From NCBI GenBank assembly GCA_048538235.1, contig JBLYPX010000001.1:679554-743553 (forward strand): 64,000 bases of DNA. Reading direction: 5' to 3'. Position 1 is the first letter of the stretch. Each line of letters begins with the position of its first letter. The position numbers were made by a program, and so were the translations under genes. Source of the stretch: Candidatus Komeilibacteria bacterium. GTDB taxonomy: Bacteria > Patescibacteriota > Patescibacteriia > UBA1558. Of this stretch, positions 22,833 through 63,670 are shown piece by piece. The notes beneath the pieces are model-generated. The model did no database searches, was not told the DNA's origin, and saw only the letters and a list, made by a program, of their open reading frames with translations.

Positions 22833-23639
22833 TTATATTGCTAATTGCAAACTACTACCCAATGTCTGTAATTTATTCCAGTTAAACGAATTGTCCTTAG
22901 CATCTACATAGGCCATCAATATATATTTAGGCTTATCTTCGTCTAACATATTATCTATTATAGCCATAACCACCATAGCTGAATCTTCTTTAGACAACTT
23001 AAGCTTGTCTACTAAAACCATCTCTAAGGCTAAACTCAGCAAAGCTGGCGTAGGTTTTGCTTCTATCATGGTTTCTGCAATCTCATCTGTATATTTAACA
23101 GCTATATATTTTTTTAATATACCTTTAAACCTTGAATCTTGTTGCCATGTTTTTACTAACTCTCCCGTACGTGCCAACCAAGATAAAACAACAACAACTT
23201 CCTCTGCCTTGCCTAGTCCTAAACTTTTCCAAAGATAGTTTCTAATTCTTGATACATCGCCGCTAGAAATTCTTCCTAGTTCTTCCATAGACTTTGTTAA
23301 AGATTTTGGCTTAATAAAATCTTTCCAAATAGTATTCACTGGAACAGAAACACTTTCATCCTCTAATTCTTCTTCCTCTTCCTCAAAATCTTCGTCACCA
23401 TCTACATAAAATGGCTCGATAATATTTTCACTCAAGGCATCAATAAAATCGTTAGCTTTTTCTTCTTCAAAATTAAGATCTTCAATTAAAAAATCAACTG
23501 CTTCTTTATTACTTGCTTCGCCTTCTAAAATTGCCTGTGCTAATTCACCAGGAAAATAATTATATTTTAAAGCTAATAAATTCAAATCTCCTAGAACTTC
23601 TTTTCTATTTAAATATTCTTCTATTTCTTTATTCTTCAT
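22833..23639 (-). CDS. acidic hypothetical protein, translationally coupled to the upstream giant ORF
   Basis: 268 aa with an Asp/Glu-rich stretch (DGDEDFEEEEEELEDES). Its start overlaps the stop of ORF 23629..28722 by 11 nt. Confidence 0.5.
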   Translation of the reverse strand: MKNKEIEEYLNRKEVLGDLNLLALKYNYFPGELAQAILEGEASNKEAVDFLIEDLNFEEEKANDFIDALSENIIEPFYVDGDEDFEEEEEELEDESVSVPVNTIWKDFIKPKSLTKSMEELGRISSGDVSRIRNYLWKSLGLGKAEEVVVVLSWLARTGELVKTWQQDSRFKGILKKYIAVKYTDEIAETMIEAKPTPALLSLALEMVLVDKLKLSKEDSAMVVMAIIDNMLDEDKPKYILMAYVDAKDNSFNWNKLQTLGSSLQLAI

Positions 23640-26600
23640 CTTCTTGCTCGCTTGTATAATTAGAAACTATTTGTTCTATCTCATCGCCAGAAAGACCCTC
23701 TTCCTCTAAAATCACTTTCATATCTACATCCCCTCCACCGCTTGTATTAATATTACTAATCCTCTGATTAACATTAGCTATTTTATCTTGCATTTCATTG
23801 CTAAACGCTGCTTGACTAGCTCCCATCTTTTTAACTTGGGAAGATTGCTGTTCAAACCATTTCTTCATAGCCAAGAACTGTGCCATAGATAATGGTTTAC
23901 TTAAGAATGAACCACTACTTGTTTTGGGTATATTAATACCTCCCTTATTCGAGCTTTGCTTTGCTTTGCCAGCGTTAAGCATTCCTGGTGGTATATTGCT
24001 TAAAAATTGATCCATCTGTCCAGATATAACATTCATAGCCTCCTCGTCAGTACTGTTTGATGTATTATCTGTTTGTGCTAACAATTTTCTCAACTCTTCC
24101 AAAAACTTTTTATTATCTGGCTCGTTCTTTTCTTCTTCAGGTAAATTTATTTCTATTTCTTTTTCTAGAGCTTGTAAACTATTTTGTATCTGCTCTTTTG
24201 TACTATTCCTATCTGCTATCACTTTAGACAAATCACTAACCCTATCCTTAACTGAACTTTGAGTATCTCTGGCTGCTTGAGTGCTTCTAGTTGCTTCAGA
24301 GCTAGCAACAGACTCCTTCTCTGAATCTCTTGATGATGTTTGCTTGTCTTGGCCAGCACTTTCTGCCTTAGAAGTTGAAACTGTTTCTACAGATGAAGAT
24401 GATTCTCCTTGTACAGAACTTTGAGTATCTCTGGCTGCTTGAGTGCTTCTAGTTGCTTCAGAGCTAGCAACAGACTCCTTCTCTGAATCCCTTGAAGATG
24501 TTTGCTTGTCTTGGCCAGCACTTTCTGCCTTAGAAGTTGAAACTGTTTCTACAGATGAAGATGATTCTCCTTGTACAGAACTTTGAGTATCTCTGGCTTT
24601 TTCAGCACTGCTCATTGATTCTGAACTAGCCGTTGATCTATCTGAATCTCTTGATGATGTTTCTTTATTAGAACCAGCTTTCTCAGTATTTGTTGTTGAT
24701 CTGGACACCTCGTTTGCTCTAGCCCTTGCCTCTTCTGCTTTGGTTTTTTGCTTGCTAGCTAAAGATTCTAAACTCTTTATTTCTTTTTCATGTGATGTTT
24801 TATATTTCTGATTTTCTGTAGAAATCCTAGAAGCTTCTTTTCGTAAAGCATTTGCCTTCTTAGTAGCTTCATTATATCTATACATAGCTCCTTCTGGATT
24901 TACATAGTTTGGATCTTCATATTCCTTTTTAGCCTGGGCAGCATCTTTTTCATACGATTCCGCTCTACCAGTCAAGTCTTTAACCTTGCTATTATTATCA
25001 TTATAGCTCTTTGCAAATAAAGCTTTTGTAGCGTTTATTACATCTTGCGTTTTATAATAATCATCTTCTTTGGCTACAGCTTTATTCTCTTCAGACTGTC
25101 GCTTAATTTCTTCTTTATTCATAGCTTTGTTTACAACACTACTTTGGTAAACATCTAGAGCATCTTCATCTCTATCTGCATCATACCCCTGACCACCATT
25201 AACAATCATAAATTCTTCTTTTTGCTCATTGCTCATACTAGACCAATCATTTAAAGCTTGTTCCCTTAATCTTTCTTCCGTCTTCTGACGCTCTTGTTCT
25301 GAGTTAGCAGCTCTTATATTCTCTTTCCGCTCTTTTTTCATTGCCTTACGTTCTTTTCTTGATTCAAAGAAACTCTTCCCCTTTTCTACGCTTACACCAC
25401 CCTCACTGACTGTCATATCTTTTGCATTAATAATCCTATCTACAAAGGGTTGAGGAAGTTTAGGTTTAGATTTATCTATAACACCGTTCTTTCCAACATT
25501 GGCAATAGCGTCTGCCAAATATTCTTTTCTAATATCACCCTCAGTCATGTTTGGTTGATTTCTGTCTTCTCTAATATATTGACGGGCACTTTCTTTTTCA
25601 GCAACGGTCATACTATTCCACACATCTTCTTGAATAGAGCCATCCGAATCGACACCTTCAATGGTACTATGAGCTTTCTCATGACGAATTAACTGTTTGG
25701 CGTCTTTTCCTTTTCTTGATTTATTAACCAAAACCAAACCATCTGATTTTATTCTTTCTTCATCATTTAAATTGTTTAACAATTGATCAACACCACTAAC
25801 TCTTTCACCTGATTCAGTCTCAATTCCATGCAAGGTATCATTCTTTACTTGTTGTAAGTCTGCGTCTTTGCTTGGTTTTACGCCAAAATATTCTAAAGCT
25901 GTTCTGATATCTTCATCCTCCTCTGCTGATTCAAGCTCACTTTGATAAGCTTGCACCATTTCTTTCATAGCACTAGCTGCTTTAATAGCTTCTTCACCGT
26001 TAACAAACATACCAGCCTTTCTTTTCTGACCGGTTAAACCACCTTCTACTCTTTCATTCAGTTCATTGAAATCTACTGCTGTCATATTACCACTTCTAGC
26101 AAGCGATCCCATTGTAATACCTCCTTGAGTTGATTTACTTATTTTTGAATATTCTGAATATTGATCCTGATTTAAATATTCACTACTCTTTTCTTCCTCA
26201 CTTAAAGATTTATATTTGTCTGAGTTATAGAAACGCTCCCCTAAGACACTAGCATTATTTGCAACAAACTCATCCTTATTTACTTCTCTGGTTTCATCAC
26301 CCTTCTTAAGAACAACATTACTGTTTTCATTTCTACTAGTAGCTTCTTGATCAACCTGCCAATCTTTACCTTCTTCACTCATATCTGCTCTAACCATGTC
26401 TGTTGGCATAAGATTACTAATTTCATTTTCTACAGCTAAACCTGTATTTAAAATCTGATCGTCTGAAACTTGAGAATCTACCATATAATCTTTAGTGGAT
26501 TTCTTTACCTCTACATCACTAATCTTTTTAGGTTCTCCTTGAACACTTATACTTTCATTGGATAAATTTTGATCATAATATTTAGAGGCCTCGTTGCTTA

Positions 26601-28722
26601 CCTTTTCATCACTTAAATGTTTTAAGGCTTTGTACAAAGCGGCTCTTCTAGTCTCTGCCTTCTTCCTACCATCTGTACCAGGGTTTTGAGAATCTACTTT
26701 TTCATTAACTTGTTTAACTAATTTATCTACCTTATCATAAGGCATACTCTTAAACATTTCTTTAACAGCCTTACTCTTTATATCTCCCAAATTATCTTCA
26801 ACATCTCCAGCTTGAAATCTCTCTGGCTCATCTGCAAACACCCTACCCTTACGCTCAGCTAATCTCTTTTCTTTTATTTCTTTTTCAGCAGATTTATACA
26901 CCCTCTTAAGTGGATTAATAGAAGAAACTTCCTTCTTCTTATATTTTTCTTCTGCTCTAGTTGTTGCTTCGGACTTTTCTTTATTAATATATGCTTCTTT
27001 AAGCTTTGCACTACTTAAAGATTGATCGCTGTATAGATCTTCTCCCTCTTCAATATCATATTTAGTGCGCAATTCATTCTCAGCATTCGTTATAGCTCTA
27101 GCTTTATATGCATCTCTTGCCTCGTCTACAGTATTTACATCAAACTCTGTTATTAGTTCCTGCTTACGAGCATCATCAAAACCGTTCCATTCTGTACGTG
27201 CCTTATTCTTTGCCTGCTCAGTAACACTATCGTGTTCCTCTCTCATAAAAGACTCTCTAATGTCACCAGCTGCAACCTTACCAGAACCATCTCTAGCGGT
27301 ACCACCTTTATTCCATAACTTATTCGCACCCGCAGCATCTGCGTTAATAGCTTTAGAAATAGCTTCCCTTTTCGGAATCTCTGCTCTAGCAGCTAAAGCT
27401 GCATTAATATTATCTCCACCACCAAAAACTTTCTTTCTGATATTATCTGCTCTTTTATCTCTTGCTTTCTCTCTTCCTTTTAACTTATCTTCTGACCTAG
27501 CTGCCGCTAAATGTAATAATGACCCCTCTCTTGCTCCACCTTCTGTAGCGCCAACTCTTTTAGCATCCCACCTTAAAAGCGCTCCGCCCGTACCACCAGC
27601 CAACGCTTTTCCACCCGCTTTTAAACCTCTACCACCTGCCTTCATGCCAGACTTAATATATCCACCACCCTTCTTTATTCCTTTGTCAAAAACCTTGCCC
27701 ATTAGACCACCAGATTTACCTCCCATTTTTTGAGCCATCTGCATACCAACAACCAAAAGCATAATACCTAATAGGTAGTTAAGTAAAAATGGCGCTGAGG
27801 CTAATTGCCCACCAATAATACTATCGGGATTAACAGAACTTTCTTCAGCTGTAAAACGTCCACCAGTTTGTGACACAACAGACAATGTTAACCATAGGAA
27901 AAAAGCAATAGCCGGACCAACAATTAACTGCTCGCTAAACTGAGACCACCATTGTTTTGCCTGACCACCTAAACTTCCTGGTAAAGCTGAAGCTAAATAT
28001 GCAAAAGGAGACATTACAACTAATATCCATAGAATAACAATACGATAAGCAAGCATAGCAACAACAGCAACCAAAACCACTAACAATATTAACGAAATAA
28101 GTAGACCAAAAATCATGCCAAGGATAAGGGCAAAATTATCTTGCTCTATTTCTCCAGAGGCATCCATTGAACTTGCTAAGGATTTTAACTTATTCAAACC
28201 AAAAGCCTCTGTAAAACCAACAATAATAGAATCTCTAAAAGCAGCTACAAAAGTTAACATGATAACTTGAGAAACATCTATTAAAAATCCTGCTATTGTC
28301 TTTGAAAAGTTAATCAATATAGCCATAATAATAACTTTCCTCAAAAAGTTCTTATAACTATATGATTCAACACCTAAAACTGTACCAACAGAGATGATAA
28401 GTAATATGACTATAAAGAACATATTACATATATCTCTAACAAGCACCCAACCAGTTGTTACAGCAGCCGCTGAAGTAAATTCATTAAACTGAGCAATATT
28501 AATGAGAACGGATAACACTAAGGTTATAAGTGAGCCTATCAAACTCATCAATAAATCCAGTATCCAGGCAAATACATTAGTCATTGCATCAGCTATACCA
28601 GCTGCATGACTAATAAAAGGTACTAAAATAATTAAACTTAAAACGAAAACAACCAAGGCTAACCGTTTAGTCACCTTGGTGTTTGCAAACTTCTTTATTC
28701 TAAGAATTAGATTTTTAAGCAT
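23629..28722 (-). CDS. giant membrane protein: N-terminal polytopic TrbL/VirB6-like domain plus ~1350-aa K/E/S-rich repetitive extension
   Basis: 1697 aa. It has a signal-like N-terminus, six or more TM helices in the first ~340 aa, a Gly/Lys linker, a long charged coiled-coil-like region, an S/T/E-rich segment with a 54-aa tandem repeat, and an acidic C-terminus. The TrbL/VirB6 assignment is by topology and architecture only. Confidence 0.55.
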   Translation of the reverse strand: MLKNLILRIKKFANTKVTKRLALVVFVLSLIILVPFISHAAGIADAMTNVFAWILDLLMSLIGSLITLVLSVLINIAQFNEFTSAAAVTTGWVLVRDICNMFFIVILLIISVGTVLGVESYSYKNFLRKVIIMAILINFSKTIAGFLIDVSQVIMLTFVAAFRDSIIVGFTEAFGLNKLKSLASSMDASGEIEQDNFALILGMIFGLLISLILLVVLVAVVAMLAYRIVILWILVVMSPFAYLASALPGSLGGQAKQWWSQFSEQLIVGPAIAFFLWLTLSVVSQTGGRFTAEESSVNPDSIIGGQLASAPFLLNYLLGIMLLVVGMQMAQKMGGKSGGLMGKVFDKGIKKGGGYIKSGMKAGGRGLKAGGKALAGGTGGALLRWDAKRVGATEGGAREGSLLHLAAARSEDKLKGREKARDKRADNIRKKVFGGGDNINAALAARAEIPKREAISKAINADAAGANKLWNKGGTARDGSGKVAAGDIRESFMREEHDSVTEQAKNKARTEWNGFDDARKQELITEFDVNTVDEARDAYKARAITNAENELRTKYDIEEGEDLYSDQSLSSAKLKEAYINKEKSEATTRAEEKYKKKEVSSINPLKRVYKSAEKEIKEKRLAERKGRVFADEPERFQAGDVEDNLGDIKSKAVKEMFKSMPYDKVDKLVKQVNEKVDSQNPGTDGRKKAETRRAALYKALKHLSDEKVSNEASKYYDQNLSNESISVQGEPKKISDVEVKKSTKDYMVDSQVSDDQILNTGLAVENEISNLMPTDMVRADMSEEGKDWQVDQEATSRNENSNVVLKKGDETREVNKDEFVANNASVLGERFYNSDKYKSLSEEEKSSEYLNQDQYSEYSKISKSTQGGITMGSLARSGNMTAVDFNELNERVEGGLTGQKRKAGMFVNGEEAIKAASAMKEMVQAYQSELESAEEDEDIRTALEYFGVKPSKDADLQQVKNDTLHGIETESGERVSGVDQLLNNLNDEERIKSDGLVLVNKSRKGKDAKQLIRHEKAHSTIEGVDSDGSIQEDVWNSMTVAEKESARQYIREDRNQPNMTEGDIRKEYLADAIANVGKNGVIDKSKPKLPQPFVDRIINAKDMTVSEGGVSVEKGKSFFESRKERKAMKKERKENIRAANSEQERQKTEERLREQALNDWSSMSNEQKEEFMIVNGGQGYDADRDEDALDVYQSSVVNKAMNKEEIKRQSEENKAVAKEDDYYKTQDVINATKALFAKSYNDNNSKVKDLTGRAESYEKDAAQAKKEYEDPNYVNPEGAMYRYNEATKKANALRKEASRISTENQKYKTSHEKEIKSLESLASKQKTKAEEARARANEVSRSTTNTEKAGSNKETSSRDSDRSTASSESMSSAEKARDTQSSVQGESSSSVETVSTSKAESAGQDKQTSSRDSEKESVASSEATRSTQAARDTQSSVQGESSSSVETVSTSKAESAGQDKQTSSRDSEKESVASSEATRSTQAARDTQSSVKDRVSDLSKVIADRNSTKEQIQNSLQALEKEIEINLPEEEKNEPDNKKFLEELRKLLAQTDNTSNSTDEEAMNVISGQMDQFLSNIPPGMLNAGKAKQSSNKGGINIPKTSSGSFLSKPLSMAQFLAMKKWFEQQSSQVKKMGASQAAFSNEMQDKIANVNQRISNINTSGGGDVDMKVILEEEGLSGDEIEQIVSNYTSEQEDEE
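24257..24615. repeat. 162-bp direct tandem repeat (~2.2 copies) inside the giant ORF
   Basis: CTTTGAGTATCTCTGGCTGCTTGAGTGCTTCTAGTTGCTTCAGAGCTAGCAACAGACTCC... recurs at ~24257, ~24419 and (partially) ~24581. This encodes the 54-aa repeat ARDTQSSVQGESSSSVETVSTSKAESAGQDKQTSSRDSEKESVASSEATRSTQA. Confidence 0.85.
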
Positions 28723-28795: not shown

Positions 28796-28824
28796 TTGAC
28801 AAAAACATAAAAATGGTGTATTAT
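28796..28824 (+). promoter_or_regulatory. sigma70 promoter for the first T9SS-CTD gene
   Basis: TTGACA, a 17-nt spacer, then TATTAT. SD AGGAGAG lies before the ATG at 28907. Confidence 0.55.
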
Positions 28825-28906
28825 ACTATATTACTTTATTATTTGATCTTTTATAACAAAATTAATAGCACATACAAAATCTCAAGGAATTGAGTAGGAG
28901 AGTAAA

Positions 28907-30139
28907 ATGAAGACTTTAAACTTATTAACTGCGTTAATGTTTGTATTTATTTCGATCGTACATGGTGACTGGATAAACATAACTAACCCAGACACTGATG
29001 ACGATGATTTAAACACAATGGTAAGAACGGAAAATGATATGTTTCACATGTTTGGAGAAGATGGTACATATATTAGGGGGATTAATTTCTCACTATCAAA
29101 TCAACCATCGCCGGCTGGACTTGAAACAGATTATTTTAAAGCTTTTGCCGTAAACAACACTATCTATATATGTGGGGAAGAAAATACTATCCTTAAATCT
29201 ATAGATAGTGGTAATAACTGGAATGTCCAGTTCCAAGGCAATGACGATGACTTATCATTTTATGCAATGAGCTTCTGGAGTGAAAACTCCGGCGTTGTAG
29301 GTGGAGACAATCTCACTATCATGCTTACAACCGACGGACAAACATACACAGAAGTGATGAGTAATCCAAACGGCGGATGCATAAAATACATTCATCAAGT
29401 ATCTTCTAATGTTTTCCTTGCTGGCGGTTGGGATTATGAGAACAATGGAATACTTTTCCGCTCTCAAGATAGGTGTGAAACGTGGAATACAGTAAATATC
29501 AATACAAGTGATGATGTTTTCCACATAACCAGTCTTGGCGAAACCGTATTAATTGCCACCAAAGGAAGCTCGCACTGTTTGAGAAGTGACGATGGAGGAG
29601 TTAGTTTTTACTACTTAAACACGCCAACAAACAACGGAGTGAACGGTTTCAAGATTATTTCCAATGATCTGATCTTTATGTACAAGGGCGTTGAGTTGTA
29701 TTCTTCAACCGACTCGTGTGCAACCTGGACGCTCGAACATGAAACCGATGACACGATTAGAGATATGTATGTTGACACAACAAACCATATTAGTTGGTTA
29801 ACTGGAAGAAATGGAATAGTTTCATACAATTCATCATTTCTAGTCTCTATCGACCCCATCAATCAACAAGTGCCAAATGGTTATGTGTTAAACCAGAATT
29901 ATCCAAATCCATTCAACCCAAACACGACAGTTGAGTATTCTATTCCTGCTGATGGAATGTGTACTCTTACGATATACGATTTCCGTGGCAAAGAAATCAA
30001 AACTGTTGTAAACGAATTCCAGTCTGCTGGAACTCATCGGGTTGCAATTGACGGTAGTAATCTACCTTCTGGCGCCTACATCTACAAGTTGCAATCCGGT
30101 GGAATTTCATTATCCCACAAAATGCTACTTGTAAAATAA
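28907..30139 (+). CDS. secreted BNR/Asp-box repeat protein with T9SS (Por) type-A C-terminal sorting domain
   Basis: 410 aa with a signal peptide and Asp-box repeats (SIDSGNNW, SQDRCETW, SDDGGVSF, STDSCATW). The C-terminus LNQNYPNPFNPNTTVEYSIPADGMCTLTIYDFRGKEIKTVVNEFQSAGTHRVAIDGSNLPSGAYIYKLQSGGISLSHKMLLVK is a textbook Por_Secre_tail. GC is noticeably above the window background. Confidence 0.85.
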   Translation: MKTLNLLTALMFVFISIVHGDWINITNPDTDDDDLNTMVRTENDMFHMFGEDGTYIRGINFSLSNQPSPAGLETDYFKAFAVNNTIYICGEENTILKSIDSGNNWNVQFQGNDDDLSFYAMSFWSENSGVVGGDNLTIMLTTDGQTYTEVMSNPNGGCIKYIHQVSSNVFLAGGWDYENNGILFRSQDRCETWNTVNINTSDDVFHITSLGETVLIATKGSSHCLRSDDGGVSFYYLNTPTNNGVNGFKIISNDLIFMYKGVELYSSTDSCATWTLEHETDDTIRDMYVDTTNHISWLTGRNGIVSYNSSFLVSIDPINQQVPNGYVLNQNYPNPFNPNTTVEYSIPADGMCTLTIYDFRGKEIKTVVNEFQSAGTHRVAIDGSNLPSGAYIYKLQSGGISLSHKMLLVK

Positions 30140-30161
30140 CCTGCATTTAATAATCAACAAA

Positions 30162-30189
30162 CCCTCACCTAATTAAAGGTGGGGGTTTT
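30162..30189 (+). terminator. rho-independent terminator
   Basis: CCCTCACCT-AATTAA-AGGTGGGGG followed by TTTT. Confidence 0.6.
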
Positions 30190-30227
30190 ACATATTTACT
30201 TATTTTAACCTCAAATATTAGTAAACC

Positions 30228-30256
30228 TTGACAAAATACATTAAATAGTGTATTAT
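30228..30256 (+). promoter_or_regulatory. sigma70 promoter for the second T9SS-CTD gene (paralogous to the promoter at 28796)
   Basis: TTGACAAAATACATTAAATAGTGTATTAT gives TTGACA, a 17-nt spacer, then TATTAT. SD AGGAGG sits within a small hairpin before the ATG at 30334. Confidence 0.55.
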
Positions 30257-30333
30257 TATATGTTATCATTAAATAGGTAACAGAACCTTGAAAAACCAAA
30301 CAAACAAAGAGGCTAAGCCTCTAGGAGGAAATC

Positions 30334-31560
30334 ATGAAAAAATTGATGATTACTATCGTGATGGCCGCTCTGGTGGCCATGCCTGTATTTGTATTTGCCG
30401 AGTGGCAAGTTGTACCGTATGCATACACATCTGACTTGCAATCAATATCTGCTACCCCCAACGGAACTGTACATACAGTCGGATGGTATGGTCTTTATGC
30501 CAGCGGAACCCTTAACGGTTTAGACGCACAGCCATATCCTGAAGGAACTAATGAAGCAACTGACTGGAATGTAGTAAGGGCTATTAACAATGATGTCATC
30601 TATATTGGTGGCGAAAGCATTGTTAAGTCATTAGATGGTGGCGAAAGCTGGACAGAACAATTCGAATTCTCCACCGACGATGCAGTATACGATATGGATT
30701 TTTGGAATCCTGACTCTGGCATCGCTGGTGGCGATAATCTAACCATACTGCTTTATACGGGTTCTGACTGGAACATAGTATATAGCATCCCTGATGGCGG
30801 GATGATTCGATCTGTCAAGCGCATTGCATATAACACGTTTCTTGCTGGCGGCTGGGATCAGAACTACGAAGGAATCATGCTTCGTTCCGACGACGGCGGA
30901 AGCAGCTGGACAGAGATTGAGCTTAGCACCTCTGATTTCGTAAACGGAATCACGAGTCTAAATTCAACAGTATATGTTGCTGGTCCAAACTCAATCCGTA
31001 AAAGTACAGACAACGGCCTCAGCTTTTTCTCCGTTCCTCAACCAACAGAGGCGCTCGGTACCACGGGTATAGCTATTGTCTCTACAGATGAACTTTACGC
31101 TTGGTCAAGTAATGCCCTCTATCACAGTCCAAACGGTGGGTTGAGCTGGGAGAGCGTGTATAGCTTTGGTTATACAATCGCTGATCTAGATATCGACACG
31201 GAAACTGGGGAAGCGTGGCTTTGTGGCGATGACGGTCTTATTGCCTACAACCAATCCCTTCCTTTGTCTGTGGACCGAGTCAGCGATGTAATTCCTAACG
31301 GATACACGCTTGAACAAAACTATCCCAACCCATTTAACCCATCAACCAACATTGAATACTCTATCCCGATCAATGAGAGTGTAAATATAATTATTTACAA
31401 CTCACTCGGTCAAACGATAGATGTTCTTGTTGATGAGCTCCAGTCTGCTGGAACTTACAAAGTTAACTGGAATGGGAATAGCTTACCTTCGGGTATGTAC
31501 TTCTACCAAATCAGCACACCAACTTTTACCAGAACCATGAAAATGGTGCTGGTAAAATAA
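30334..31560 (+). CDS. secreted BNR/Asp-box repeat protein with T9SS type-A C-terminal sorting domain (paralog of 28907..30139)
   Basis: 408 aa with a signal peptide and Asp-boxes (SLDGGESWTE, RSDDGGSSWTE, STDNGLSF, SPNGGLSWES). The C-terminus is LEQNYPNPFNPSTNIEYSIP...SGMYFYQIS...MKMVLVK. GC is roughly 42-47% by hand count. Confidence 0.85.
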   Translation: MKKLMITIVMAALVAMPVFVFAEWQVVPYAYTSDLQSISATPNGTVHTVGWYGLYASGTLNGLDAQPYPEGTNEATDWNVVRAINNDVIYIGGESIVKSLDGGESWTEQFEFSTDDAVYDMDFWNPDSGIAGGDNLTILLYTGSDWNIVYSIPDGGMIRSVKRIAYNTFLAGGWDQNYEGIMLRSDDGGSSWTEIELSTSDFVNGITSLNSTVYVAGPNSIRKSTDNGLSFFSVPQPTEALGTTGIAIVSTDELYAWSSNALYHSPNGGLSWESVYSFGYTIADLDIDTETGEAWLCGDDGLIAYNQSLPLSVDRVSDVIPNGYTLEQNYPNPFNPSTNIEYSIPINESVNIIIYNSLGQTIDVLVDELQSAGTYKVNWNGNSLPSGMYFYQISTPTFTRTMKMVLVK

Positions 31561-31581
31561 CACTTGTCCATAATGGACAAT

Positions 31582-31612
31582 AAAACCCCCTATCTCAAAA
31601 AGGGGGTTTTAT
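31582..31612. terminator. bidirectional rho-independent terminator
   Basis: AAAACCCCCT-ATCTCAAAA-AGGGGGTTTT sits between the + gene ending at 31560 and the convergent giant gene ending at 31634. Confidence 0.65.
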
Positions 31613-31633: not shown

Positions 31634-34600
31634 TTAAGGAATTAATATAATTTCGCCATCATATCCTTCCCACCCAATAATTGCCTCAAAAATACCATCT
31701 CCATTTGTATCAACACCACAGTTACTACCACTTCCTTTACTACAAAAACCCCAATTATCCTCTACGTACACCTTTGGTGTATACACACAAGCTGGTTTAC
31801 CATCGACTTCCGTAGGCGGATTGCTACAAATATATGTGTGATTAAAACTAAAATAACCTATACCATTCTCGTAGTCATCCACACAATAATTAAGATCATT
31901 ACCGATGTTTTTTGGAACACACAAATTATTAGTTCCTGTACACTCAGCATTACTTCTACAACCCTGTCTTAACTTAAGGTTCTTTATTTGATAGCTTTGA
32001 TCAGAAGATAAACCTGGCGTATGATTCAACCTGCCAACCCCCAAATCCCTCAAACAATTACCACTTGTATTATTATCATTATAACAACTCGTTACCATTT
32101 CCTCTGGTATAGTTACTGTGCTACTGTAATGACACCAACCATCTTCTAAAGTTTCTGTACCATCTGGACAACCGGAATTAGTATTTGGTATGTAACTCAC
32201 ACCATTCACAACATTACTCAAAGAAGTTGTATCTGCGAATGGTAAATAAGGATAGCTTTCAGTCTGGCCGGGTAACAACAAGTTAGATTGAGAACAATAT
32301 CCGGTTGAATAACACCAATAATTAGCCATTGATCTTGTCGCAGTAATATTGTTACTTATTTTAAAATCATATTCTAGGGTTACAACATCTCCGGCTGTAA
32401 ATTTTTCATCTGCTATCTCTGTGTTTCTATATATTACCCAATTGTCATCCCTGCTCGATGTTTGTGTAATAGTAGTTATACCAGTTGACGTATTTTCCGT
32501 CGCAGTACCACCCCAAGATGTGGTTGGATTAAAATCATTCCAATAATTATCATCTGAAATTGAGTTGGTACAACTGTTAACACATATATTTTTGTGATTT
32601 TTCAAGCTAACAGTTTCATCATTCTCTCCAAAAATCGACGAACCATCATCCCAATCCACCATCAATCTACTTAATGGTAATTGATCACCAGTCTCATTAT
32701 ATGCATAAAACTTAACTGTTGCGTTATAGATATTCGATTCCATAAGAATGTTACCACTATTTTTATCGTTAATAGTTATCCCTGTATTTCCCTCCGAAAC
32801 TACACCGTTTGAATCTAATTCAACTTGACGTAGATCTACATTATCGCCAGAACTAATAGTAGAAATCTCACTAAATGATGCTTGTTCATATCTGTCTTGA
32901 CCATAATCCCAAGAAAATTTTTCTATAAGCCTTGCAAACAAATTCTTTAACCATTGCAATCCATTGTTATCACCTCCATTAAAATTTGAATTTATTGCCG
33001 AAACCAAATCTTGATCTTCACTATCAACTCCATAATAATGACCATCTATATTTGAAGACCCGTCTAACATACCTATAACACCTGATTGAGAAACTGAATA
33101 TGGTGTACCGGCAACTACCCCACTCAAACTAGTATTCTCATTTTCGACCTGTATAAACTGGTTATAATTATTCAAATTAAAATCTACGTTACTCATTCCA
33201 TACCAGCTATAATATTGGTCTATGTCTAAAGATATTTCATTGTCATCAACATCTTTAAATGTGGCCATACCATTTATAAAATTATTAAACTTAGGCGAGC
33301 CTACCCGAATAAAATCAGTACATATTTCTGTTGCAGAAGTGTCTGGTTGTAGATAGTTTACCGTAACGTTGTATATATAACCCTGAACTATATTATAATA
33401 ACCATCCATATACTCAAGCGGATTAATAAAAGAAACTTCATAACGAGACACGTTATCTACTCCATCAAAATCACCATCTTGAAAACCAACAATAAAAAAT
33501 GCATACATAGCATACTCATTCCAGTTATTGCAATTCGCATAACCACCAGCAAATTCATTAGCAGACAAACATCCATCCTCTCCATCTAAAAACGGGAAGA
33601 CACCCCCATTATTTCTTGTAAAATTATGCCAAATAAAAGATTCATCATCAAATGTTATGCCCGGGTTGCCGCCAACACTATCTATCGTGTAAAATGCCTT
33701 AACCCATATCTTTGAATCCTCTGGACCGCAAAAATCTTCATTAATATTACCACCAACGCAACTATATTCATCTTCACTCGTTAGCGTAATAGTGCTTGAA
33801 CCATTTATATTAAGTAACATACACTCATCTGGATCGTTACCATAAATATCATCTTGACACTTTAAAACACCATCCGTTCCTATACCATTAACAAAATAAT
33901 CGTCATGCCCTGGTATCTGCCAACCAGCCGCAACATTGTTGAATTCAATACTCTCAATGACTGATTCTTCTTTACCAAAACTATCTTCATCCCATATTTC
34001 AACATCTTGATTACTAACACCTACTGAAACATTAGGATACTGCTGACCACCATTCATGCATAAAGCTATTGTAGAATTGTCTTGAAAACCAGCATATGGT
34101 GAAACAATCTCAGGAGTTCTTGCGTAATAATCTTCCATCCAATAATAACCACAATGTTGCCAATCCCATACATAGCTCTCATTTTCTGGCGCCTGCTCAC
34201 CAAGATCTAACGAAACTGGAATAGACACGTCCCCTGCATAAGGATAATTACCTTCTGACTGTAAACAATAGTACATATTATCAAAATCCAAATTTAGGTC
34301 ATCAGCTATATTGACACCAGATGGGTTATATTCACCACTTAAAATATCTAATGGCATCCAAGTTAAACAAGGGTGTGTGCTGCCGGCATATCCAATTATC
34401 GTTCTTGAATAATCATATTCAAGACAGAAGCCCCAAAAACCGCGATAATTATTAACTGATTTAATTTGAGAATCGCCAATAGCAGTAAATCCATTATAAT
34501 TAGATCTATAATACCTAGTCTCACCTTGTGTGTAATTAACCTCTGTATAATCACACTCACAACCAGCGCCCTGAGAGCAGAAATTCGCTTGAGGCATCTG

Positions 34601-37600
34601 CAAAGGCTTGGTAATAATATTTCCATCATCATCAAACTCAATATTTAACCCTATTGTCGAAAAAGGAGCATCAGAATCAGGGAACAACCTACACGTTGGT
34701 TCAACAGTTATTCCATTAAAACCTACACCCGCTGTATCGTCACTTTCGTTGGACAACCTCAATACACCATCTTTATTTTTAGCCAACAAAGATTCTAAAT
34801 TAAACTTATTCAACAATGAGTAACCAGAATATTCTTGTCCTGACCAACCAGTTTCTCTGGCCGTATATACATCCTCAGTTAATATTTCATCACCTTTTTC
34901 TAACCAAGAAATACAAGTATTACCACTAGGAGATAACTCCGTACACCTGCCAAGGTCATAACAATACTCTTTCACACTTCCATCTATTTCTGTGGCATAA
35001 CTTGAAGATCTACAAGCTAGCCATTCGCTACACTCTCTATTTTTAGTTACTTTAATAACTTCATTACTATCACTTAAACAATCATCATCCTCTGGGGAGC
35101 ATCCTGTAACAACTGTTAAATTACCATTGTTTACTAAACTGTTATTATAGCTAGCATTACTGTCATATTGTCTTATTATCTCTCCATCACTATCTACATT
35201 AGATGTATCCAACATTAATACACAACCGCTTTCCCAAGAAACCTGTCCATTACAATCTGCACCATTTATACTGTTGCCGTTTATATAATAATATGACTGC
35301 GTCTCACTAATACCAACATTATCTAGATAGAATGTAGAATTGGTATCATTACCGAAAGCTATTGAACACCTTATGTTGTTATTACTTGAATCTGCTCTAA
35401 ATTTACCTGTAAAAGTTGAATATCTATCTGTTCTTGTTTGGGAACTTTTAATTAACATTTTATACACTCCACCACCCACACCTATAAATGAATCGTCATA
35501 TGATTCTATAGTAGCTCCTTCACAATATAGACCAACCGAATAACTACCAATACCCGTTGTACCAGCTAATGCATGAGCTACATTTATAAATCTTGGCAAA
35601 TTAAACGACATATCTTCTGCCTCCTCCTCACTTGGAGGTTGTTGGTCTCCACTAATAAATCTTAGATCAAACTTAACAGTATAATCTTTACCGCCATTTA
35701 TTGAGAAACTCTGTCTAAATGATTCATTACTACTTGGAGTATAATAATCTACATTTACAGCATTTGTATTATCCCTTCCTGATCCATTAAGATATGAAGT
35801 AAAGCCGTCACAGCTAGTATTATCTTCACACCAAAAATCTGGTATCTCTGGATCGTTATTTACATTTCCTAATTTCGTGTTTATTTCAAAATCTCCATTA
35901 AACAGCAAATTATCTCCTTGTGTTCCTTGAGGATCTATAAACTCTGTACAACCAACCGCAGCAGAATTACATTCTCCAGCAAACCCTATCCAATCAACAT
36001 CTCTTCTCTTATATAATTCACCGCTTTCATTACATGGTATTTTGTCTGCTTGGTTAGCATTATTAACGGATGATGTTAAATACCAACCAGTTAATTTCTG
36101 ACCATTAGACTCATAATTATCTAAGAAGGTACAAGTTCTTTCTCCTGGGTCTCTCATATACACAGTCTGTCCATCTGATTGATAAGCTTCACAATTTAAA
36201 GCATCCGTACCACAAAGCGTTAAATCATATCTTTCAGGATCATTTATTAAATATATATCTTCCCAAGAATCTATAACATTTGCATTATTATTATCAACTG
36301 CAAATTGAGGAGCACCCAAAACAGTACAACCCTTATCTCTACTACTGCAATAATATTGATTATCATCTACCAAATAAATTAATTCGTCTGCCTCTGTAGT
36401 TATATTTTGATCATCTGTATCCCAAGTCTGCGCACCAATTGCTTTAGTGTTTTTTGTATCAATAAACATTGAACAGCCAACAGATGATTCAGAGCACAAA
36501 CTATTGAAGCTGCTCAAATAATGAGTATTGCCTAATCTATCCTCATATTCATCACAACCCAAATCCTCAACAGTACATTGATCTGGTGTATTCCAAGAAT
36601 CTTTAACTAAATATAGATCTGAGTTGATTTCTTTCAAGACTATATTATCTATATAGTAATATGAATTATTTGCTGGGAAGTTCAAATTAAAACTAAGTAT
36701 ATTATTGGATGACGTGTCATCAAAATATACTGGACCTAGATTATACTGTTTCCATACACTCCTAACATCTAAACTGAAACTTGGGGCAAATAAATAATCA
36801 TTATCATTATTAAAGGATATCTGTGCTTGTGTTCTGGCTGCAGTACTAGCCTTTAACCAGAAAGATAATGTATATGATTTACCAGAACGAATACTTACAT
36901 TCTTTGAAAGAATTGTTTCACTATTAGCTTTGTATGAATGCCCACCTGTTACAACAGATTCTGAACTTAATGAGCCACCTGTCCAACCATGTGTTCCGGC
37001 CTCAAAATCATCGACAAACAATCTTCTGACATTACTACCATCACTACCCTTATATACTTTACAACCAACAGCCTCTGCTGAACACGAACCCGATTCAGAA
37101 GTTAAAACTAATGCCATATCTGCACTATCTATTGCTCTTCTTAACTGAACACAGCTATTACTTGCTTTAACAACACTGCTTTCTCTTACTAAATATTCAT
37201 CGTTATTCTCATCAACAAACCAACGACAGGCAGGATCATCTTCTTCTACACAAGTGTCTACACCATTAACTGTATCGTTACAAACATTAGTTGTTCCATT
37301 ATACATAACACTAGTACAAGGACCGTCGTTAATATCACTCTTTAATAAACTCCAAGATCTTAATTCAAAACCAGTTGTTTCAGATCCTTCCCAGGTATAA
37401 TATGTTGTAACGTCTGGGTCTGTATCTGGAACACACATTCTTAAAGAATTATAATACTCAACAGTTTCACCAGCTGTCATATTAGTAAAGGCTTCACAAC
37501 CAACCTCTTCTAAACTACAACTCTGAGCTGTGTCAGCAATGAAACTATCGTAAGTTATGATATCATCTGCGCCAAACCACCTATCTATTTCTGTATTTTC

Positions 37601-40264: not shown

Positions 40265-40996
40265 TTAATAAGATATTTGATTTTCATTTAAAGCCTCCTC
40301 ATACATTACCATCAAGTCCTCGTCTGAAATTACTGCTAATTCTTCTTCTGATATTCCAGAATTAAGTAGCATAGCCCTTACCTCCTCAACAGACACATTA
40401 TAAAGTCCACTCGCTGCGTCAGTCGCACCTTGTCCTGACAAAACTAAAGTGGTTTGCTCGTAAAGCTCAACCATATCCTGTGTAGACAAAACATTAATTT
40501 CACTTTCTGGATAACCTAATTTAACAAGTTCTGTGATTAAACCTTCTTTTCCACCATATGATTCAATGGTCATGTCTAAATCCGTTGGAATTTGATCAAA
40601 TAAATTAGTATTACAGCCGTCTGGATTACTGCATAATGGATCTGCACCAGAAACAACCTCTATTCTATCTCCTAAACCATCTGAATCTGTATCTTCAATG
40701 TATGCAGATGTTCCATAAACATACAATTCTAAATAATCTGACAAACCATCCCCATCTGAATCCATTTTTTTTAACTCTTCTGCGTCTTGAAGATCAACCT
40801 GATCACTCTTTTCCACCTCAACATTAGCAAATCTAGCCATGCCAATTTTAAAAGGCTCCTTAATATTACTTTGAGCCTGGTAAAACGAAAAACTAAAGAC
40901 TAATAAAGCTACAGCTAGAACGCCTAAATAGTAGTACGGACTTTCTGTATTAATCTTTAAAACTTTCTTTAGTTTTTCTAGTAAATTATTAAACAT
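40265..40996 (-). CDS. membrane-anchored protein with a dockerin-like pair of EF-hand Ca-binding loops
   Basis: 243 aa with an N-terminal TM (YYYLGVLAVALLVFSFSFY). It has two 12-residue DxDxDGxxDxxE loops (DSDGDGLSDYLE and DTDSDGLGDRIE) spaced 23 residues apart. Each is followed by a hydrophobic helix, as in type-I dockerin F-hand duplications. Confidence 0.55.
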   Translation of the reverse strand: MFNNLLEKLKKVLKINTESPYYYLGVLAVALLVFSFSFYQAQSNIKEPFKIGMARFANVEVEKSDQVDLQDAEELKKMDSDGDGLSDYLELYVYGTSAYIEDTDSDGLGDRIEVVSGADPLCSNPDGCNTNLFDQIPTDLDMTIESYGGKEGLITELVKLGYPESEINVLSTQDMVELYEQTTLVLSGQGATDAASGLYNVSVEEVRAMLLNSGISEEELAVISDEDLMVMYEEALNENQISY

Positions 40997-59111: not shown

Positions 59112-59140
59112 TTGACAAATAATAGATTAGATGTTAATCT
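59112..59140 (+). promoter_or_regulatory. sigma70-like promoter
   Basis: TTGACA, a 17-nt spacer, then TAATCT. It is followed by SD GGAGGG before the ATG at ~59170. Confidence 0.4.
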
Positions 59141-59169
59141 TAAACACTGTCAATATGGAGGGTTTTGAC

Positions 59170-59475
59170 ATGAACAAAATAGAAGTTTTGGGAGACAAGC
59201 TAGTATCTCTACAAGCAGAAGAGTATCGCCACTTGGCTGATGAGATTAAAAAGATCATCAAAGCAATTAAAGATAGTGGTAGAGAAATTCATGGTGAATT
59301 ATCCTCCCCACTATTGTTCACAAACCTTAACATTGGACTAAGCTTTATTTGGAGACGAGAAGGCATTTCTACTATCCAAACAATCGGCCCAGGTCCTGTG
59401 GGTACAGTACATTTTGTCTTCACTGACGGTGGCGAATGCTACATATTTGAAGACGAAATAAAAGAGTTAATTTGA
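59170..59475 (+). CDS. small hypothetical protein
   Basis: The supplied ORF starts at 59131, but the best SD (GGAGGG, 7-nt spacing) precedes the internal Met (MNKIEVLGDKLVSL...). No recognisable motifs. Confidence 0.4.
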   Translation: MNKIEVLGDKLVSLQAEEYRHLADEIKKIIKAIKDSGREIHGELSSPLLFTNLNIGLSFIWRREGISTIQTIGPGPVGTVHFVFTDGGECYIFEDEIKELI

Positions 59476-63500: not shown

Positions 63501-63670
63501 GCGTGTCCTAAATGTAAAACACCAGTTGCATTTGGTGGTGGCAGAGCTACTGAAAAATGTTTTTTCTTTGTTTTAAGATTATCTGGATTAAATAATCCAG
63601 AATTCTCCCACTGACTATATATATCTTGCTCAAATTCTTGAGCATTATAGTTTTTAGCTATTTCTTTCAT
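60536..63670 (-). CDS. valS: valyl-tRNA synthetase carrying an inserted histidine-phosphatase (PGAM-like) domain
   Basis: 1044 aa with HIGH (HLGHAAM), the ValRS signature TRPETKLGDTAVAV, WCISRQIWWGHRIP, DTLDTWFSSALW, KMSKS (GRKMSKSLGN) and a C-terminal coiled coil. Residues ~433-628 form an extra domain carrying RHGLTDWN, SPLMRSRQTAEV, ERNYGSFEG and VITHNAFIRSL. Confidence 0.9.
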   Translation of the reverse strand: MKEIAKNYNAQEFEQDIYSQWENSGLFNPDNLKTKKKHFSVALPPPNATGVLHLGHAAMLAYQDTMVRYHRMLGENTLWVPGTDHAAIATQNKVEKIIAQEDNKTKEDLGREKFLDRVKTYVGESQDTIRNQIRRMGSSVDWSRERYTFSDGLSKAVNMAFKKMYDDGLIYRGHRIVNWCPRCHSTLADDEVEYENKKTKLYWIKYGPFVLATTRPETKLGDTAVAVNPDDDRYKDMVGKDYMIPGVLGEFKVRVITDKAVDPEFGSGAVKVTPAHSFIDNEMALKNNIPMRQIIDEDGKMMANCGKYAGMTTTDAREAILKDMEKMGLIDHIDEDYEHNLSVCYRCNTPIEPLPSEQWFVDVNKKIPSKGKSLKELSINAVKSGDIDIMPDKFEKVYFNWMNNLHDWCISRQIWWGHRIPVWYKGDEKLVPRYITELIISRHGLTDWNQEGRVQGQTDTPLDEKKVGEIKDKVAQLKEEKIAKIICSPLMRSRQTAEVISEELGVDYEVDELVVERNYGSFEGKLVKDIKKDNPDYYKDKINYDIPGDEEETYESMMKRGEEFLKKVDEKYAGQKILVITHNAFIRSLEMLIKGGDAKELSDYKPLFGNFVRYSLPDGSYNLKEWEQDEDTLDTWFSSALWTFSTLLDQDFSKYSSWEEWVKNSPDLKNFHPTSVMETGYDILFFWVARMIIMTTYLLDEIPFETVYLHGLIRDKQGRKMSKSLGNGIDPIEMIDKFGADALRLSMMVGATPGNDMRLYEEKIEGYRNFVNKLWNISRYILSSVKDVKVITSKSKAKTIADEWILSELDLLVDSTTKDLDELKFSPAIERLYEFTWSKFADWYIEISKVETNKDDILLYILGQLLKLWHPFAPYVTEAIWSNFNNGQLIISQWPANKHGLFNFLKKNRNKEFNIVMDIITGIRNAKGENKLDPAKVINCKLDLNTVISSNVGVIEKLAKVKIVPTKDKSWLELHIKGVDIALDIDKSEANKMQSKQREELERYIETLQKKLGNDNFVSNAPAEVVNKEKEKLAEAEEKLNKLK

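What the first reader, a model, noticed from the sequence alone, without database searches (positions are those of the whole stretch)
28907..31560. Two tandem T9SS (Por) C-terminal-sorting-domain proteins in a pilus-bearing, secretin-less, low-GC genome
Both proteins end with a canonical type-A Por secretion tail (…NQNYPNPFNP.T..EYSIP…G.Y.YKL/QIS…KM.LVK). Both have signal peptides and BNR/Asp-box (SxDxGxTW) repeat bodies, the Ycf48-like architecture typical of Bacteroidota cargo. T9SS requires an outer membrane and PorK/L/M/N/SprA/PorU machinery. None of that is in this window, whose other content looks monoderm or CPR-like (type IV pilus locus without PilQ, T-box, roughly 30% GC). The two genes are clearly GC-richer (about 42-47% by hand count) than everything around them, which points to foreign origin. 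Against contamination, each gene sits behind a host-style TTGACA-17-TATTAT promoter with a consensus SD and ends in a host-style terminator. The two promoters are themselves paralogous, so the promoter-gene-terminator unit appears to have duplicated in situ. This could be cargo acquired from a Bacteroidota-like donor or host, perhaps repurposed without T9SS, or evidence for an unexpected secretion route.
Basis: partly seen in the sequence, partly recalled or inferred. Interest (0 to 1): 0.75.

Follow-up and report, generated by a model that had tools for sequence, protein, structure and literature searches.

The report
T9SS-tailed propeller proteins in a CPR bacterium
Two neighbouring genes in a tiny candidate-phyla-radiation (CPR) bacterium, a group regarded as having one membrane, encode secreted propeller-shaped proteins that carry a well-preserved copy of the export tag used by Bacteroidota-type bacteria to cross an outer membrane; the genes are real, were acquired long ago from Ignavibacteria-like donors, and the tag is still under selection although its usual machinery was not found.

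Summary
ORF1 (28907-30139) and ORF2 (30334-31560) each encode a signal peptide, a Ycf48/BNR-like 7-bladed beta-propeller and a C-terminal domain that passes the curated cut-offs of PF18962 and TIGR04183. Each has an 11/12-consensus promoter, a Shine-Dalgarno site and a strong terminator.

The window lies on an 860-kb contig of a Candidatus Komeilibacteria MAG. This is not a chimera. Independent assemblies carry the same gene between orthologues of the same two giant envelope proteins.

The 13 CPR sequences form one clade (100% bootstrap) nested among Ignavibacteria homologues, which points to a single old transfer.

The higher GC is not a donor relic. It is a C-only excess at third codon positions, and it is shared by the six relatives whose DNA I could read.

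The tail evolves under purifying selection (dN/dS 0.10-0.16) and keeps the canonical B, D and E motifs. The central propeller blades are hypervariable.

Most likely these are abundant, Sec-exported surface proteins whose tail has been re-used without a T9SS. I could not check absence of a T9SS across the whole genome. A speculative alternative is that the tail engages a host's T9SS surface proteins.

The parts
28796..28824 (+). Promoter of ORF1 (TTGACA-17-TATTAT)
   Evidence: 11/12 match to consensus. One of only 6 sites this good in the window on both strands.
28881..28900 (+). ORF1 5'UTR: small hairpin CTCAAGGAATTGAG, then Shine-Dalgarno AGGAG 6 nt before the ATG
   Evidence: Read from the sequence. 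The hairpin is weak, z = -0.6.
28907..30139 (+). ORF1, 410 aa: signal peptide (28907-28966), BNR/Ycf48-like propeller, T9SS type-A C-terminal domain (about 29864-30136)
   Evidence: NCBI annotates only the last 290 aa (P0005 = MFW0862620.1).
30162..30190 (+). Intrinsic terminator after ORF1 (CCCTCACCT...AGGTGGGGG followed by TTTT)
   Evidence: -15.5 kcal/mol, z = -3.7.
30228..30256 (+). Promoter of ORF2 (TTGACA-17-TATTAT), paralogous to the ORF1 promoter and conserved in relatives
   Evidence: Alignment A2 with L001, L004 and L005.
30308..30328 (+). ORF2 5'UTR hairpin AGAGGCTAAGCCTCT directly followed by Shine-Dalgarno AGGAGG; conserved in L001, L004 and L005
   Evidence: hairpin z = -2.5.
30334..31560 (+). 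ORF2, 408 aa: signal peptide (30334-30399), 7-bladed propeller, T9SS type-A C-terminal domain (about 31285-31557)
   Evidence: P0001 = MFW0862621.1. AF2 model with pLDDT 83.6. Foldseek top hits are PorZ and Ycf48.
31565..31612 (.). Terminator region shared by the convergent ORF2 and the giant gene (two hairpins, with A/T runs on both sides)
   Evidence: -23.6 kcal/mol, z = -5.7.
23629..28722 (-). Giant protein A, 1697 aa. N-terminal polytopic membrane domain, then a long charged and Ser/Thr-rich region. Conserved left neighbour of the propeller genes.
   Evidence: Orthologues in L001 (42%), L004 (91% over 563 aa), L086 and L088. No Pfam family.
31634..40258 (-). Giant protein B, 2874 aa. Signal peptide, Cys-rich. 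Conserved right neighbour.
   Evidence: 55% identical to L001 and 45% to L005. Only a sub-threshold CBM_4_9 hit.
40265..40996 (-). 243-aa membrane protein with a bacterial TSP3 repeat. Part of the conserved locus.
   Evidence: 64% identical to the L001 orthologue. Pfam TSP3_bac hit.
22833..23639 (-). 268-aa protein of unknown function just downstream of giant A (overlapping its last 11 bases) on the minus strand. Conserved locus member.
   Evidence: 61% identical to the L001 orthologue. No Pfam family.

Best explanation
ORF1 and ORF2 are resident genes of a Komeilibacteria-type CPR bacterium. They belong to a small CPR-specific clade that descends from one old transfer of an Ignavibacteria-type cargo gene (BNR propeller plus T9SS type-A tail).

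The gene became fixed in a cell-envelope locus, between two giant surface proteins. There it has been duplicated, lost and recombined.

Inferred mechanism:
1. Each gene is transcribed strongly from its own near-consensus promoter.
2. The protein is exported by Sec through its N-terminal signal peptide. That is sufficient in a cell without an outer membrane.
3. The protein acts outside the cell as an abundant binding module. The central propeller blades are the exposed, fast-changing face.
4. The C-terminal beta-sandwich, together with the adjacent N-terminal blades, is the constant part. It no longer serves as a T9SS export signal in this cell. It is kept as an anchoring or partner-binding domain.

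Shown: domain content, residency, ancestry, selection pattern, expression signals. Inferred: high expression, Sec-only export, surface location, and the anchoring role of the tail.
For: Identity and domains.

Source: NCBI labels ORF2 as a protein of a Candidatus Komeilibacteria bacterium MAG, on a contig of 860,445 bp.

Residency:
- The order S6-SSB-EF-P / 268 aa / giant A / propeller gene / giant B / TSP3 protein / KsgA recurs in L001, with flanks 42-64% identical.
- The propeller gene is also flanked by giant A and/or giant B orthologues in L002-L005, L086 and L088.

Ancestry: the CPR clade has 100% bootstrap support and sits among Ignavibacteria sequences. The best genome hits are Ignavibacteria at 28-30% over the full length.

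Selection:
- Tail dN/dS is 0.16, 0.13 and 0.10 in three pairs.
- Residues 126-300 are saturated in the first two of these pairs (dN > 1, 13-23% amino-acid identity), while the flanking gene shows dS of about 0.8-1.3.
- The tail keeps the same conserved residues as Ignavibacteria tails: QNYPNPFNPsT, SGxYFY, KMxLxK.

Expression signals:
- 11/12 promoters as good as the one before rpsF.
- A promoter and 5'UTR hairpin plus SD conserved across relatives.
- Strong terminators.
- NNC-over-NNT codon preference, unique to these genes in the window and shared by the six relatives with readable DNA.

No T9SS, secretin or outer-membrane family in any ORF of the window. CPR are treated as a monoderm clade in 10.1101/2021.05.31.446380.
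Against: - Only 64 kb of 860 kb was examined for T9SS genes.
- The review PMC10202324 states that the conserved motif residues are surface-exposed and thought to be T9SS contact sites. Their full retention in a lineage without a T9SS is not obviously explained by a purely structural or anchoring role.
- Ribosomal and EF-P genes in the window and in L001 do not share the C3 bias. The link from codon bias to high expression is therefore not proven.
- There are no expression or proteomic data.
- One relative (L087) carries a tandem pair in a different neighbourhood.
Confidence: 0.68

Rival explanations
1. Host-directed mimicry. The CPR cell lives on an Ignavibacteria- or Bacteroidota-type host. 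It displays or releases tail-bearing propellers so that the tail is bound by the host's surface-exposed T9SS shuttle and attachment proteins (PorV, PorU, PorZ, PorQ). The host sortase might even ligate the protein to host LPS. This would provide attachment to the host.
For: - The donor lineage is Ignavibacteria, and transfers into episymbionts often come from hosts (my own knowledge).
- The tail is the most conserved part of the protein. It keeps exactly the motifs B, D and E.
- According to PMC10202324, these motifs are modelled to contact the extracellular loops of PorV, and the attachment complex works on the cell surface.
- An N|G or D|G dipeptide matching the reported PorU site T/E/D/N|G/A/S sits just before the tail in ORF1, ORF2, P0003, P0004 and P0010.
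- Hypervariable blades fit a host-interaction protein.
Against: - There is no evidence about the host.
- No interaction was tested.
- The putative cleavage dipeptide is not conserved in P0002, P0007 or P0013.
- Conservation of the motifs could be structural.
- The literature searches found no precedent.
Confidence: 0.12
2. The genome does have its own T9SS-like machinery, or an outer membrane, encoded outside the window. In that case the pair is ordinary cargo.
For: Canonical tail motifs are under purifying selection. 92% of the genome was not examined.
Against: - The genome is an 860-kb CPR genome.
- CPR are regarded as monoderm.
- A T9SS needs more than ten genes, including a translocon of about 2400 aa (my own knowledge), plus outer-membrane biogenesis.
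- The pilus locus in the window has PilB/T/C/M/D, a weak sub-threshold PilO-like hit and pilins, but no secretin.
- The full-length search found no other protein from this contig in its top 120 hits, which include tail-only matches.
Confidence: 0.04
3. Recent foreign DNA, mis-assembly or a binning chimera, as the higher GC might suggest.
For: GC3 is 0.37 and 0.44, against 0.21 +/- 0.035 for the other genes.
Against: - The same gene sits between the same orthologous neighbours in at least six independent assemblies.
- The promoter and 5'UTR are conserved.
- The compositional shift is in C3 only and is shared by the six relatives with readable DNA.
- The CPR clade is monophyletic.
Confidence: 0.02
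4. The tail is a decaying relic with no present function. The propeller alone matters.
For: None of the known partners is detectable in the window.
Against: - dN/dS of the tail is 0.10-0.16.
- Tail identity is 73-90% where the body is 13-23%.
- 16 of the 34 invariant columns of the family alignment lie in the last 85 residues.
Confidence: 0.03

Closest known systems
Ignavibacteria / FCB-group proteins annotated 'T9SS type A sorting domain-containing' or 'photosystem II stability/assembly factor-like' (one or two BNR propellers plus a Por_Secre_tail)
   Same: Same architecture: signal peptide, a propeller of about 300 aa, and a tail of about 85 aa. Alignable over the full length at 28-30%. Tail 45-52% identical, with identical motif residues.
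   Different: Those organisms are diderm. The T9SS review describes the system as found in Bacteroidota and the FCB superphylum. The CPR clade is a separate, 100%-supported branch with its own conserved locus, promoter and codon bias. The function of the family is unknown even in the donors.
PorZ of Porphyromonas gingivalis (PDB 5m11)
   Same: Beta-propeller(s) followed by a type-A tail. It is the top Foldseek hit of the ORF2 model, E = 1.9e-13. There is also a weak NCBIfam T9SS_PorZ hit, E = 3.5e-4.
   Different: PorZ has two propellers (748 residues in the solved chain) and is a component of the T9SS attachment complex. Identity is 14%, and the NCBIfam score of 19 bits is far below the 260-bit cut-off. 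ORF2 is not an orthologue.
Ycf48 / HCF136 (PDB 2xbg, 5ojp)
   Same: 7-bladed Asp-box propeller. Profile match at E = 8e-28. TM-score (target-normalised) 0.70-0.76.
   Different: Ycf48 is a photosystem II assembly lipoprotein of cyanobacteria and plastids and has no C-terminal tail. The host here is not photosynthetic. Only the fold is shared.
T9SS-dependent S-layer proteins of Tannerella forsythia (TfsA and TfsB; the protein names, their tails and their adjacent genes are my own knowledge)
   Same: Abundant surface proteins from adjacent genes, each ending in a T9SS tail. The S-layer's dependence on the T9SS is stated in the title of reference 83 of PMC10202324.
   Different: Those proteins are large and Ig-rich, and they are exported by a real T9SS and attached to LPS. 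This is an analogy for a possible role only. No homology of the bodies is claimed or was tested.

Membership tests
T9SS type-A C-terminal domain (TIGR04183 / PF18962) | Match to the family HMM above the curated cut-off | tested here: met
   PF18962: 39.5 and 37.3 bits (cut-off 27). TIGR04183: 37.9 and 44.0 bits (cut-off 23).
T9SS type-A C-terminal domain (TIGR04183 / PF18962) | Located at the extreme C-terminus, with conserved motifs B, D and E including the terminal lysines | tested here: met
   The matches end 3-4 residues from the C-terminus. QNYPNPFNP, SGxYFY and KMxLxK are shared with 38 FCB homologues. Motif definitions are taken from PMC10202324.
T9SS type-A C-terminal domain (TIGR04183 / PF18962) | Ig-like beta-sandwich of seven strands | tested here: inconclusive
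   The AF2 model shows six clear strands in 337-406 plus short bridges before them, with pLDDT 79-91. The whole-protein Foldseek top hit is PorZ. The domain was not searched on its own. By sequence alone it matches solved tails only weakly (8glj_D, E = 0.06).
Functional T9SS cargo | N-terminal Sec signal peptide | tested here: met
   Read from the sequence. Residues 1-20 have pLDDT below 50. No dedicated signal-peptide predictor was available.
Functional T9SS cargo | The same genome encodes the T9SS core (PorK/L/M/N, SprA/Sov, PorT, PorU, PorV) | tested here: not met
   None is found among the 46 ORFs of 100 aa or more in the 64-kb window judged to be genes, out of 56 ORFs listed. The remaining 796 kb of the contig could not be read with these tools.
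Functional T9SS cargo | An outer membrane to cross | not testable with these tools
   Only indirect evidence. CPR are described as a monoderm clade (10.1101/2021.05.31.446380). The pilus locus has no secretin.
Functional T9SS cargo | Tail removed by PorU and the cargo attached to A-LPS or released | not testable with these tools
   Needs proteomics. An N|G site precedes the tail in ORF1 and ORF2 but is not conserved across the family.
Ycf48/BNR 7-bladed propeller superfamily | Profile similarity to solved members and Asp-box repeats | tested here: met
   E = 8e-28 to 5ojp and 2xbg. Four to five S-x-D-x-G-x-x-W/F boxes per protein. Pfam PSII_BNR scores 27.7 and 26.6 bits against a cut-off of 27.
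Ycf48 proper (photosystem II assembly factor) | Orthology to Ycf48 and a photosynthetic host | tested here: not met
   NCBIfam Ycf48 equivalog scores 29.7 and 24.7 bits against a cut-off of 326. The host is a CPR bacterium.

The most novel reading that the evidence does not exclude
A CPR episymbiont has captured a T9SS cargo gene from its (Ignavibacteria-like) host lineage. It keeps the export tag intact because the tag is now a key to the host's own surface-exposed T9SS shuttle and attachment complex. Through it the symbiont's abundant, hypervariable propeller protein is docked to the host outer membrane, or even covalently ligated to it. That would be a new principle of symbiont-host attachment and a new, trans-cellular use of a secretion signal.
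Probability: 0.1. Interest if true: 0.88.

Novelty: new variant of a known kind. Interest (0 to 1): 0.55.

Why it matters
The T9SS field treats the C-terminal domain as a marker of T9SS cargo whose distribution, 'with few exceptions', follows that of the machinery (PMC10202324).

Here is a clean exception. The tag has been stably inherited and kept under purifying selection, with every recognition motif intact, in a lineage regarded as having no outer membrane.

At the least, this shows that automatic labels of the kind 'T9SS type A sorting domain protein' cannot be read as evidence of a T9SS, or of contamination, in CPR genomes. It also identifies a strongly promoted, hypervariable surface-protein locus in Komeilibacteria.

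At most, it gives a testable handle on how a CPR cell recognises its host, and on who that host is, which is a long-standing open question for most CPR lineages.

Tried and rejected
1. Chimera or contamination. Rejected because of conserved synteny in independent assemblies.

2. GC as a relic of the donor. Rejected because only C3 is raised and the same holds in the six relatives with readable DNA.

3. A simple link between high expression and GC3. Left open: ribosomal protein, EF-P and SSB genes do not show the bias.

4. T9SS parts hidden in the giant neighbours. Pfam finds nothing relevant.

5. Phage or mobile origin.
- tblastn against 50,697 phage records gave no hit.
- IMG/VR gave tail-only matches, plus two weak (25%) longer matches (L115, L160), to viral contigs.
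- PHROGs found nothing for the two proteins and only faint hits for the L087 neighbours.

6. T-box and tRNA. None found. Sub-threshold Rfam hits at 31.5-31.66 kb are terminator look-alikes.

7. Exact look-up of ORF2 in the contig index failed, so the rest of the genome could not be fetched.

8. Literature. No paper was found that links T9SS tails with CPR or Patescibacteria.

9. The first bootstrap run timed out. It was redone with my own distance code.

10. The context of the nearest non-CPR hit, P0015, was uninformative. It lies on a low-GC contig next to a serine integrase.
Full report
**1. What is there**

Two ORFs on the + strand occupy 28907-30139 (410 aa) and 30334-31560 (408 aa). They are 39% identical to each other over their full length.

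Both end in a domain that passes the curated thresholds of Pfam PF18962 (39.5 and 37.3 bits; cut-off 27) and NCBIfam TIGR04183 (37.9 and 44.0 bits; cut-off 23).

The bodies hit PSII_BNR, Sortilin-Vps10 and BNR models only marginally as single sequences. A profile of the family matches solved Ycf48 propellers at E = 8e-28.

An AlphaFold2 model of ORF2 (13-sequence alignment, mean pLDDT 83.6, pTM 0.73) is all-beta. It shows a propeller followed by a C-terminal block of strands. Its best Foldseek matches in the PDB are PorZ (two propellers plus a T9SS tail) and Ycf48.

Both N-termini are classic Sec signal peptides without a lipobox (read).

**2. Expression signals**

- TTGACA-17-TATTAT promoters lie at 28796-28824 and 30228-30256, each 11/12 to consensus.
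- Only six sites that good exist in the window on both strands. One of the others precedes the rpsF-ssb operon.
- Each gene has a consensus-like Shine-Dalgarno site.
- Each is followed by a strong hairpin plus a T-run, with z = -3.7 and -5.7 against shuffles.
- The promoter and the 5'UTR hairpin-plus-SD of ORF2 are conserved in three relatives from other assemblies (alignment A2).

**3. The host**

ORF2 is identical to P0001, accession MFW0862621.1. NCBI names it 'MAG: T9SS type A sorting domain-containing protein [Candidatus Komeilibacteria bacterium]', on a contig of 860,445 bp.

ORF1 is annotated there only from Met121, as a 290-aa protein (P0005, MFW0862620.1). That call omits the signal peptide. 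The full ORF aligns with ORF2 from residue 1 and has its own SD.

The rest of the window is typical CPR housekeeping plus a type IV pilus locus:
- the pilus locus has PilD, pilins, PilC, PilT, PilB, PilM and a weak, sub-threshold PilO-like hit;
- it has no secretin;
- no T9SS or outer-membrane family appears in any of the 46 ORFs of 100 aa or more that I judged to be genes (56 are listed);
- Rfam finds no T-box and ARAGORN finds no tRNA.

**4. Not a chimera: conserved synteny**

The closest relatives are 35-47% identical, about 400 aa long, and end in the same ...KM(V/L)LVK. They come from other samples.

In L001, a 61.7-kb contig, the gene lies between a 2231-aa and a 2854-aa gene. These are followed by a TSP3-repeat protein and KsgA, and preceded by S6-SSB-S18-EF-P and a 271-aa protein.

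The shared genes are orthologues of the window's genes, in the same order:

| Window gene | Identity to L001 orthologue |
|---|---|
| Giant B | 55% |
| Giant A | 42% |
| TSP3 protein | 64% |
| 268-aa protein | 61% |

The same flanks are seen elsewhere:
- L005: giant B, 45% identical;
- L004: giant A N-terminus, 91% identical;
- L086 and L088.

L087 carries a tandem pair in a different neighbourhood.

**5. Ancestry**

A scan of one genome per species returned almost only Ignavibacteria and other FCB-group organisms. Full-length matches were 28-30% identical. Tail-only matches were 45-52% identical.

In a neighbour-joining tree of 50 sequences, the 13 CPR-context sequences form one clade in 100 of 100 bootstraps. 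The clade is nested among Ignavibacteria sequences. Within it, ORF1 pairs with P0010 (90) and ORF2 with P0002 (89).

The simplest reading is one old acquisition from an Ignavibacteria-like donor. This was followed by vertical descent at a fixed position, an old duplication, and later losses.

Relative to L004, the window has an extra unit running from the ORF1 promoter to the ORF2 promoter. The paralogous promoters therefore mark the boundaries of this copy-number difference.

**6. Composition**

| Measure | ORF1 | ORF2 | Other 44 ORFs |
|---|---|---|---|
| GC | 38.4% | 44.7% | 33.1 +/- 2.5% |
| GC3 | 0.367 | 0.435 | 0.209 +/- 0.035 |
| C3 | 0.234 | 0.282 | 0.077 |
| G3 | 0.134 | 0.154 | 0.135 |

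(the C3 and G3 background in the last column comes from 26 of the other ORFs.)

The whole excess is C at third positions. It reflects NNC being preferred over NNT for Asn, Tyr, Asp, Phe, Ile and His.

The same C3 excess over the flanks is seen in L001, L004, L005, L086, L087 and L088. Synonymous sites between these genomes are at or near saturation: dS is 0.8-1.3 even for the closest one. The bias must therefore be maintained in the CPR lineage. It is not a trace of donor composition.

Selection on codons in a very highly expressed gene is the obvious candidate. However, ribosomal-protein and EF-P genes do not share the bias, so this remains an inference.

**7. Selection pattern**

| Region | Mean pairwise identity (8 members with DNA) |
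|---|---|
| Residues 1-125 | 40% |
| Residues 126-300 | 28% |
| Tail | 54% |

ORF2 against P0002, whose giant A neighbour is 91% identical, gives:
- N-terminus: 50-70% identity;
- residues 135-290: 13-23% identity;
- tail: 73-90% identity.

Tail dN/dS is 0.16 (ORF2/P0002), 0.13 (ORF1/P0010) and 0.10 (P0011/P0004). The middle region is saturated in the first two pairs.

The tail keeps the residues that are also conserved in 38 FCB homologues: P-x4-L-x-QNYPNPFNPsT, aG-Y, SGxYFY and KMxLxK. These correspond to motifs B, D and E. The review PMC10202324 describes them as surface-exposed, required for secretion, and modelled to contact PorV.

**8. Interpretation**

In a cell without an outer membrane, the signal peptide is enough for export. 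The tail is therefore not needed as a T9SS signal in this cell.

Its strong conservation shows that it does something. An exapted anchoring or partner-binding module is the most economical reading. In this reading the tail lies next to the conserved N-terminal blades, and the variable blades are exposed. Confidence for this reading is about 0.68.

The intact recognition motifs and the Ignavibacteria ancestry leave room for a more interesting reading: the tail may be a ligand for a host's surface-exposed T9SS shuttle and attachment proteins. Probability is about 0.1, and this was not tested.

A cryptic T9SS elsewhere in the 860-kb genome is unlikely but was not excluded.

**9. Literature**

Full-text searches were run for T9SS with Patescibacteria, for type IX secretion with Candidate Phyla Radiation, and for the family identifiers. 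None returned a paper describing such proteins in CPR.

The only public trace found is the automatic NCBI product name.

**10. Verdict**

This is a real feature and was correctly spotted. It is a known domain and a known protein family in an unexpected kind of organism, with a selection pattern that argues for function. The mechanism is unresolved. Interest is moderate.

Noticed in passing
window 60536-63670 (-): The valyl-tRNA synthetase (1044 aa) carries a histidine-phosphatase domain (His_Phos_1, E = 1e-38) inserted at residues 438-626, inside the catalytic domain. This is an unusual fusion.
   Followed up: no
window 28907-29266: The public annotation of ORF1 (MFW0862620.1, 290 aa) starts at Met121. 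It omits the signal peptide and the first blades. The full ORF has an SD and aligns with ORF2 from residue 1.
   Followed up: yes
window 23629-28722 (-) and 31634-40258 (-): Two giant envelope proteins (1697 aa and 2874 aa) with no Pfam family. Their pairing and order are conserved across several CPR assemblies. Giant A has an internal, nearly exact tandem repeat of about 55 aa in its Ser/Thr-rich tail (AESAGQDKQTSSRDSEKESVASSEATRSTQAARDTQSSVQGESSSSVETVSTSK; read). Giant B is Cys-rich with a sub-threshold CBM_4_9 hit.
   Followed up: partly
L088 128-1007: In one relative, a GIY-YIG nuclease gene sits between the giant A gene and the propeller gene. The giant A reading frame stops after 124 aa.
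   Followed up: no
L087 1-3773: A tandem pair of family members (P0004 plus a P0013-like copy) lies next to three small genes with raised GC3 (0.34-0.38) and only faint PHROG hits. This is not the usual position between the two giant genes.
   Followed up: partly
IMG/VR loci L089-L167: 85 stretches on viral contigs encode relatives of the query, almost all of them matching only the T9SS type-A tail at 30-50% identity. They are presumably phages or prophages of FCB-group bacteria that carry tail-tagged proteins.
   Followed up: no
L168 670-8100: The nearest non-CPR homologue (P0015, 699 aa, two propellers) lies about 4 kb from a large serine integrase, on a contig of about 33% GC and unknown taxon.
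   Followed up: partly
window 59131-59475 (+): A 114-aa ORF with no Pfam family is the only other ORF in the window with clearly raised GC3 (0.357).
   Followed up: no
It is also not detected at E <= 1 upstream of leuS.
   Followed up: yes
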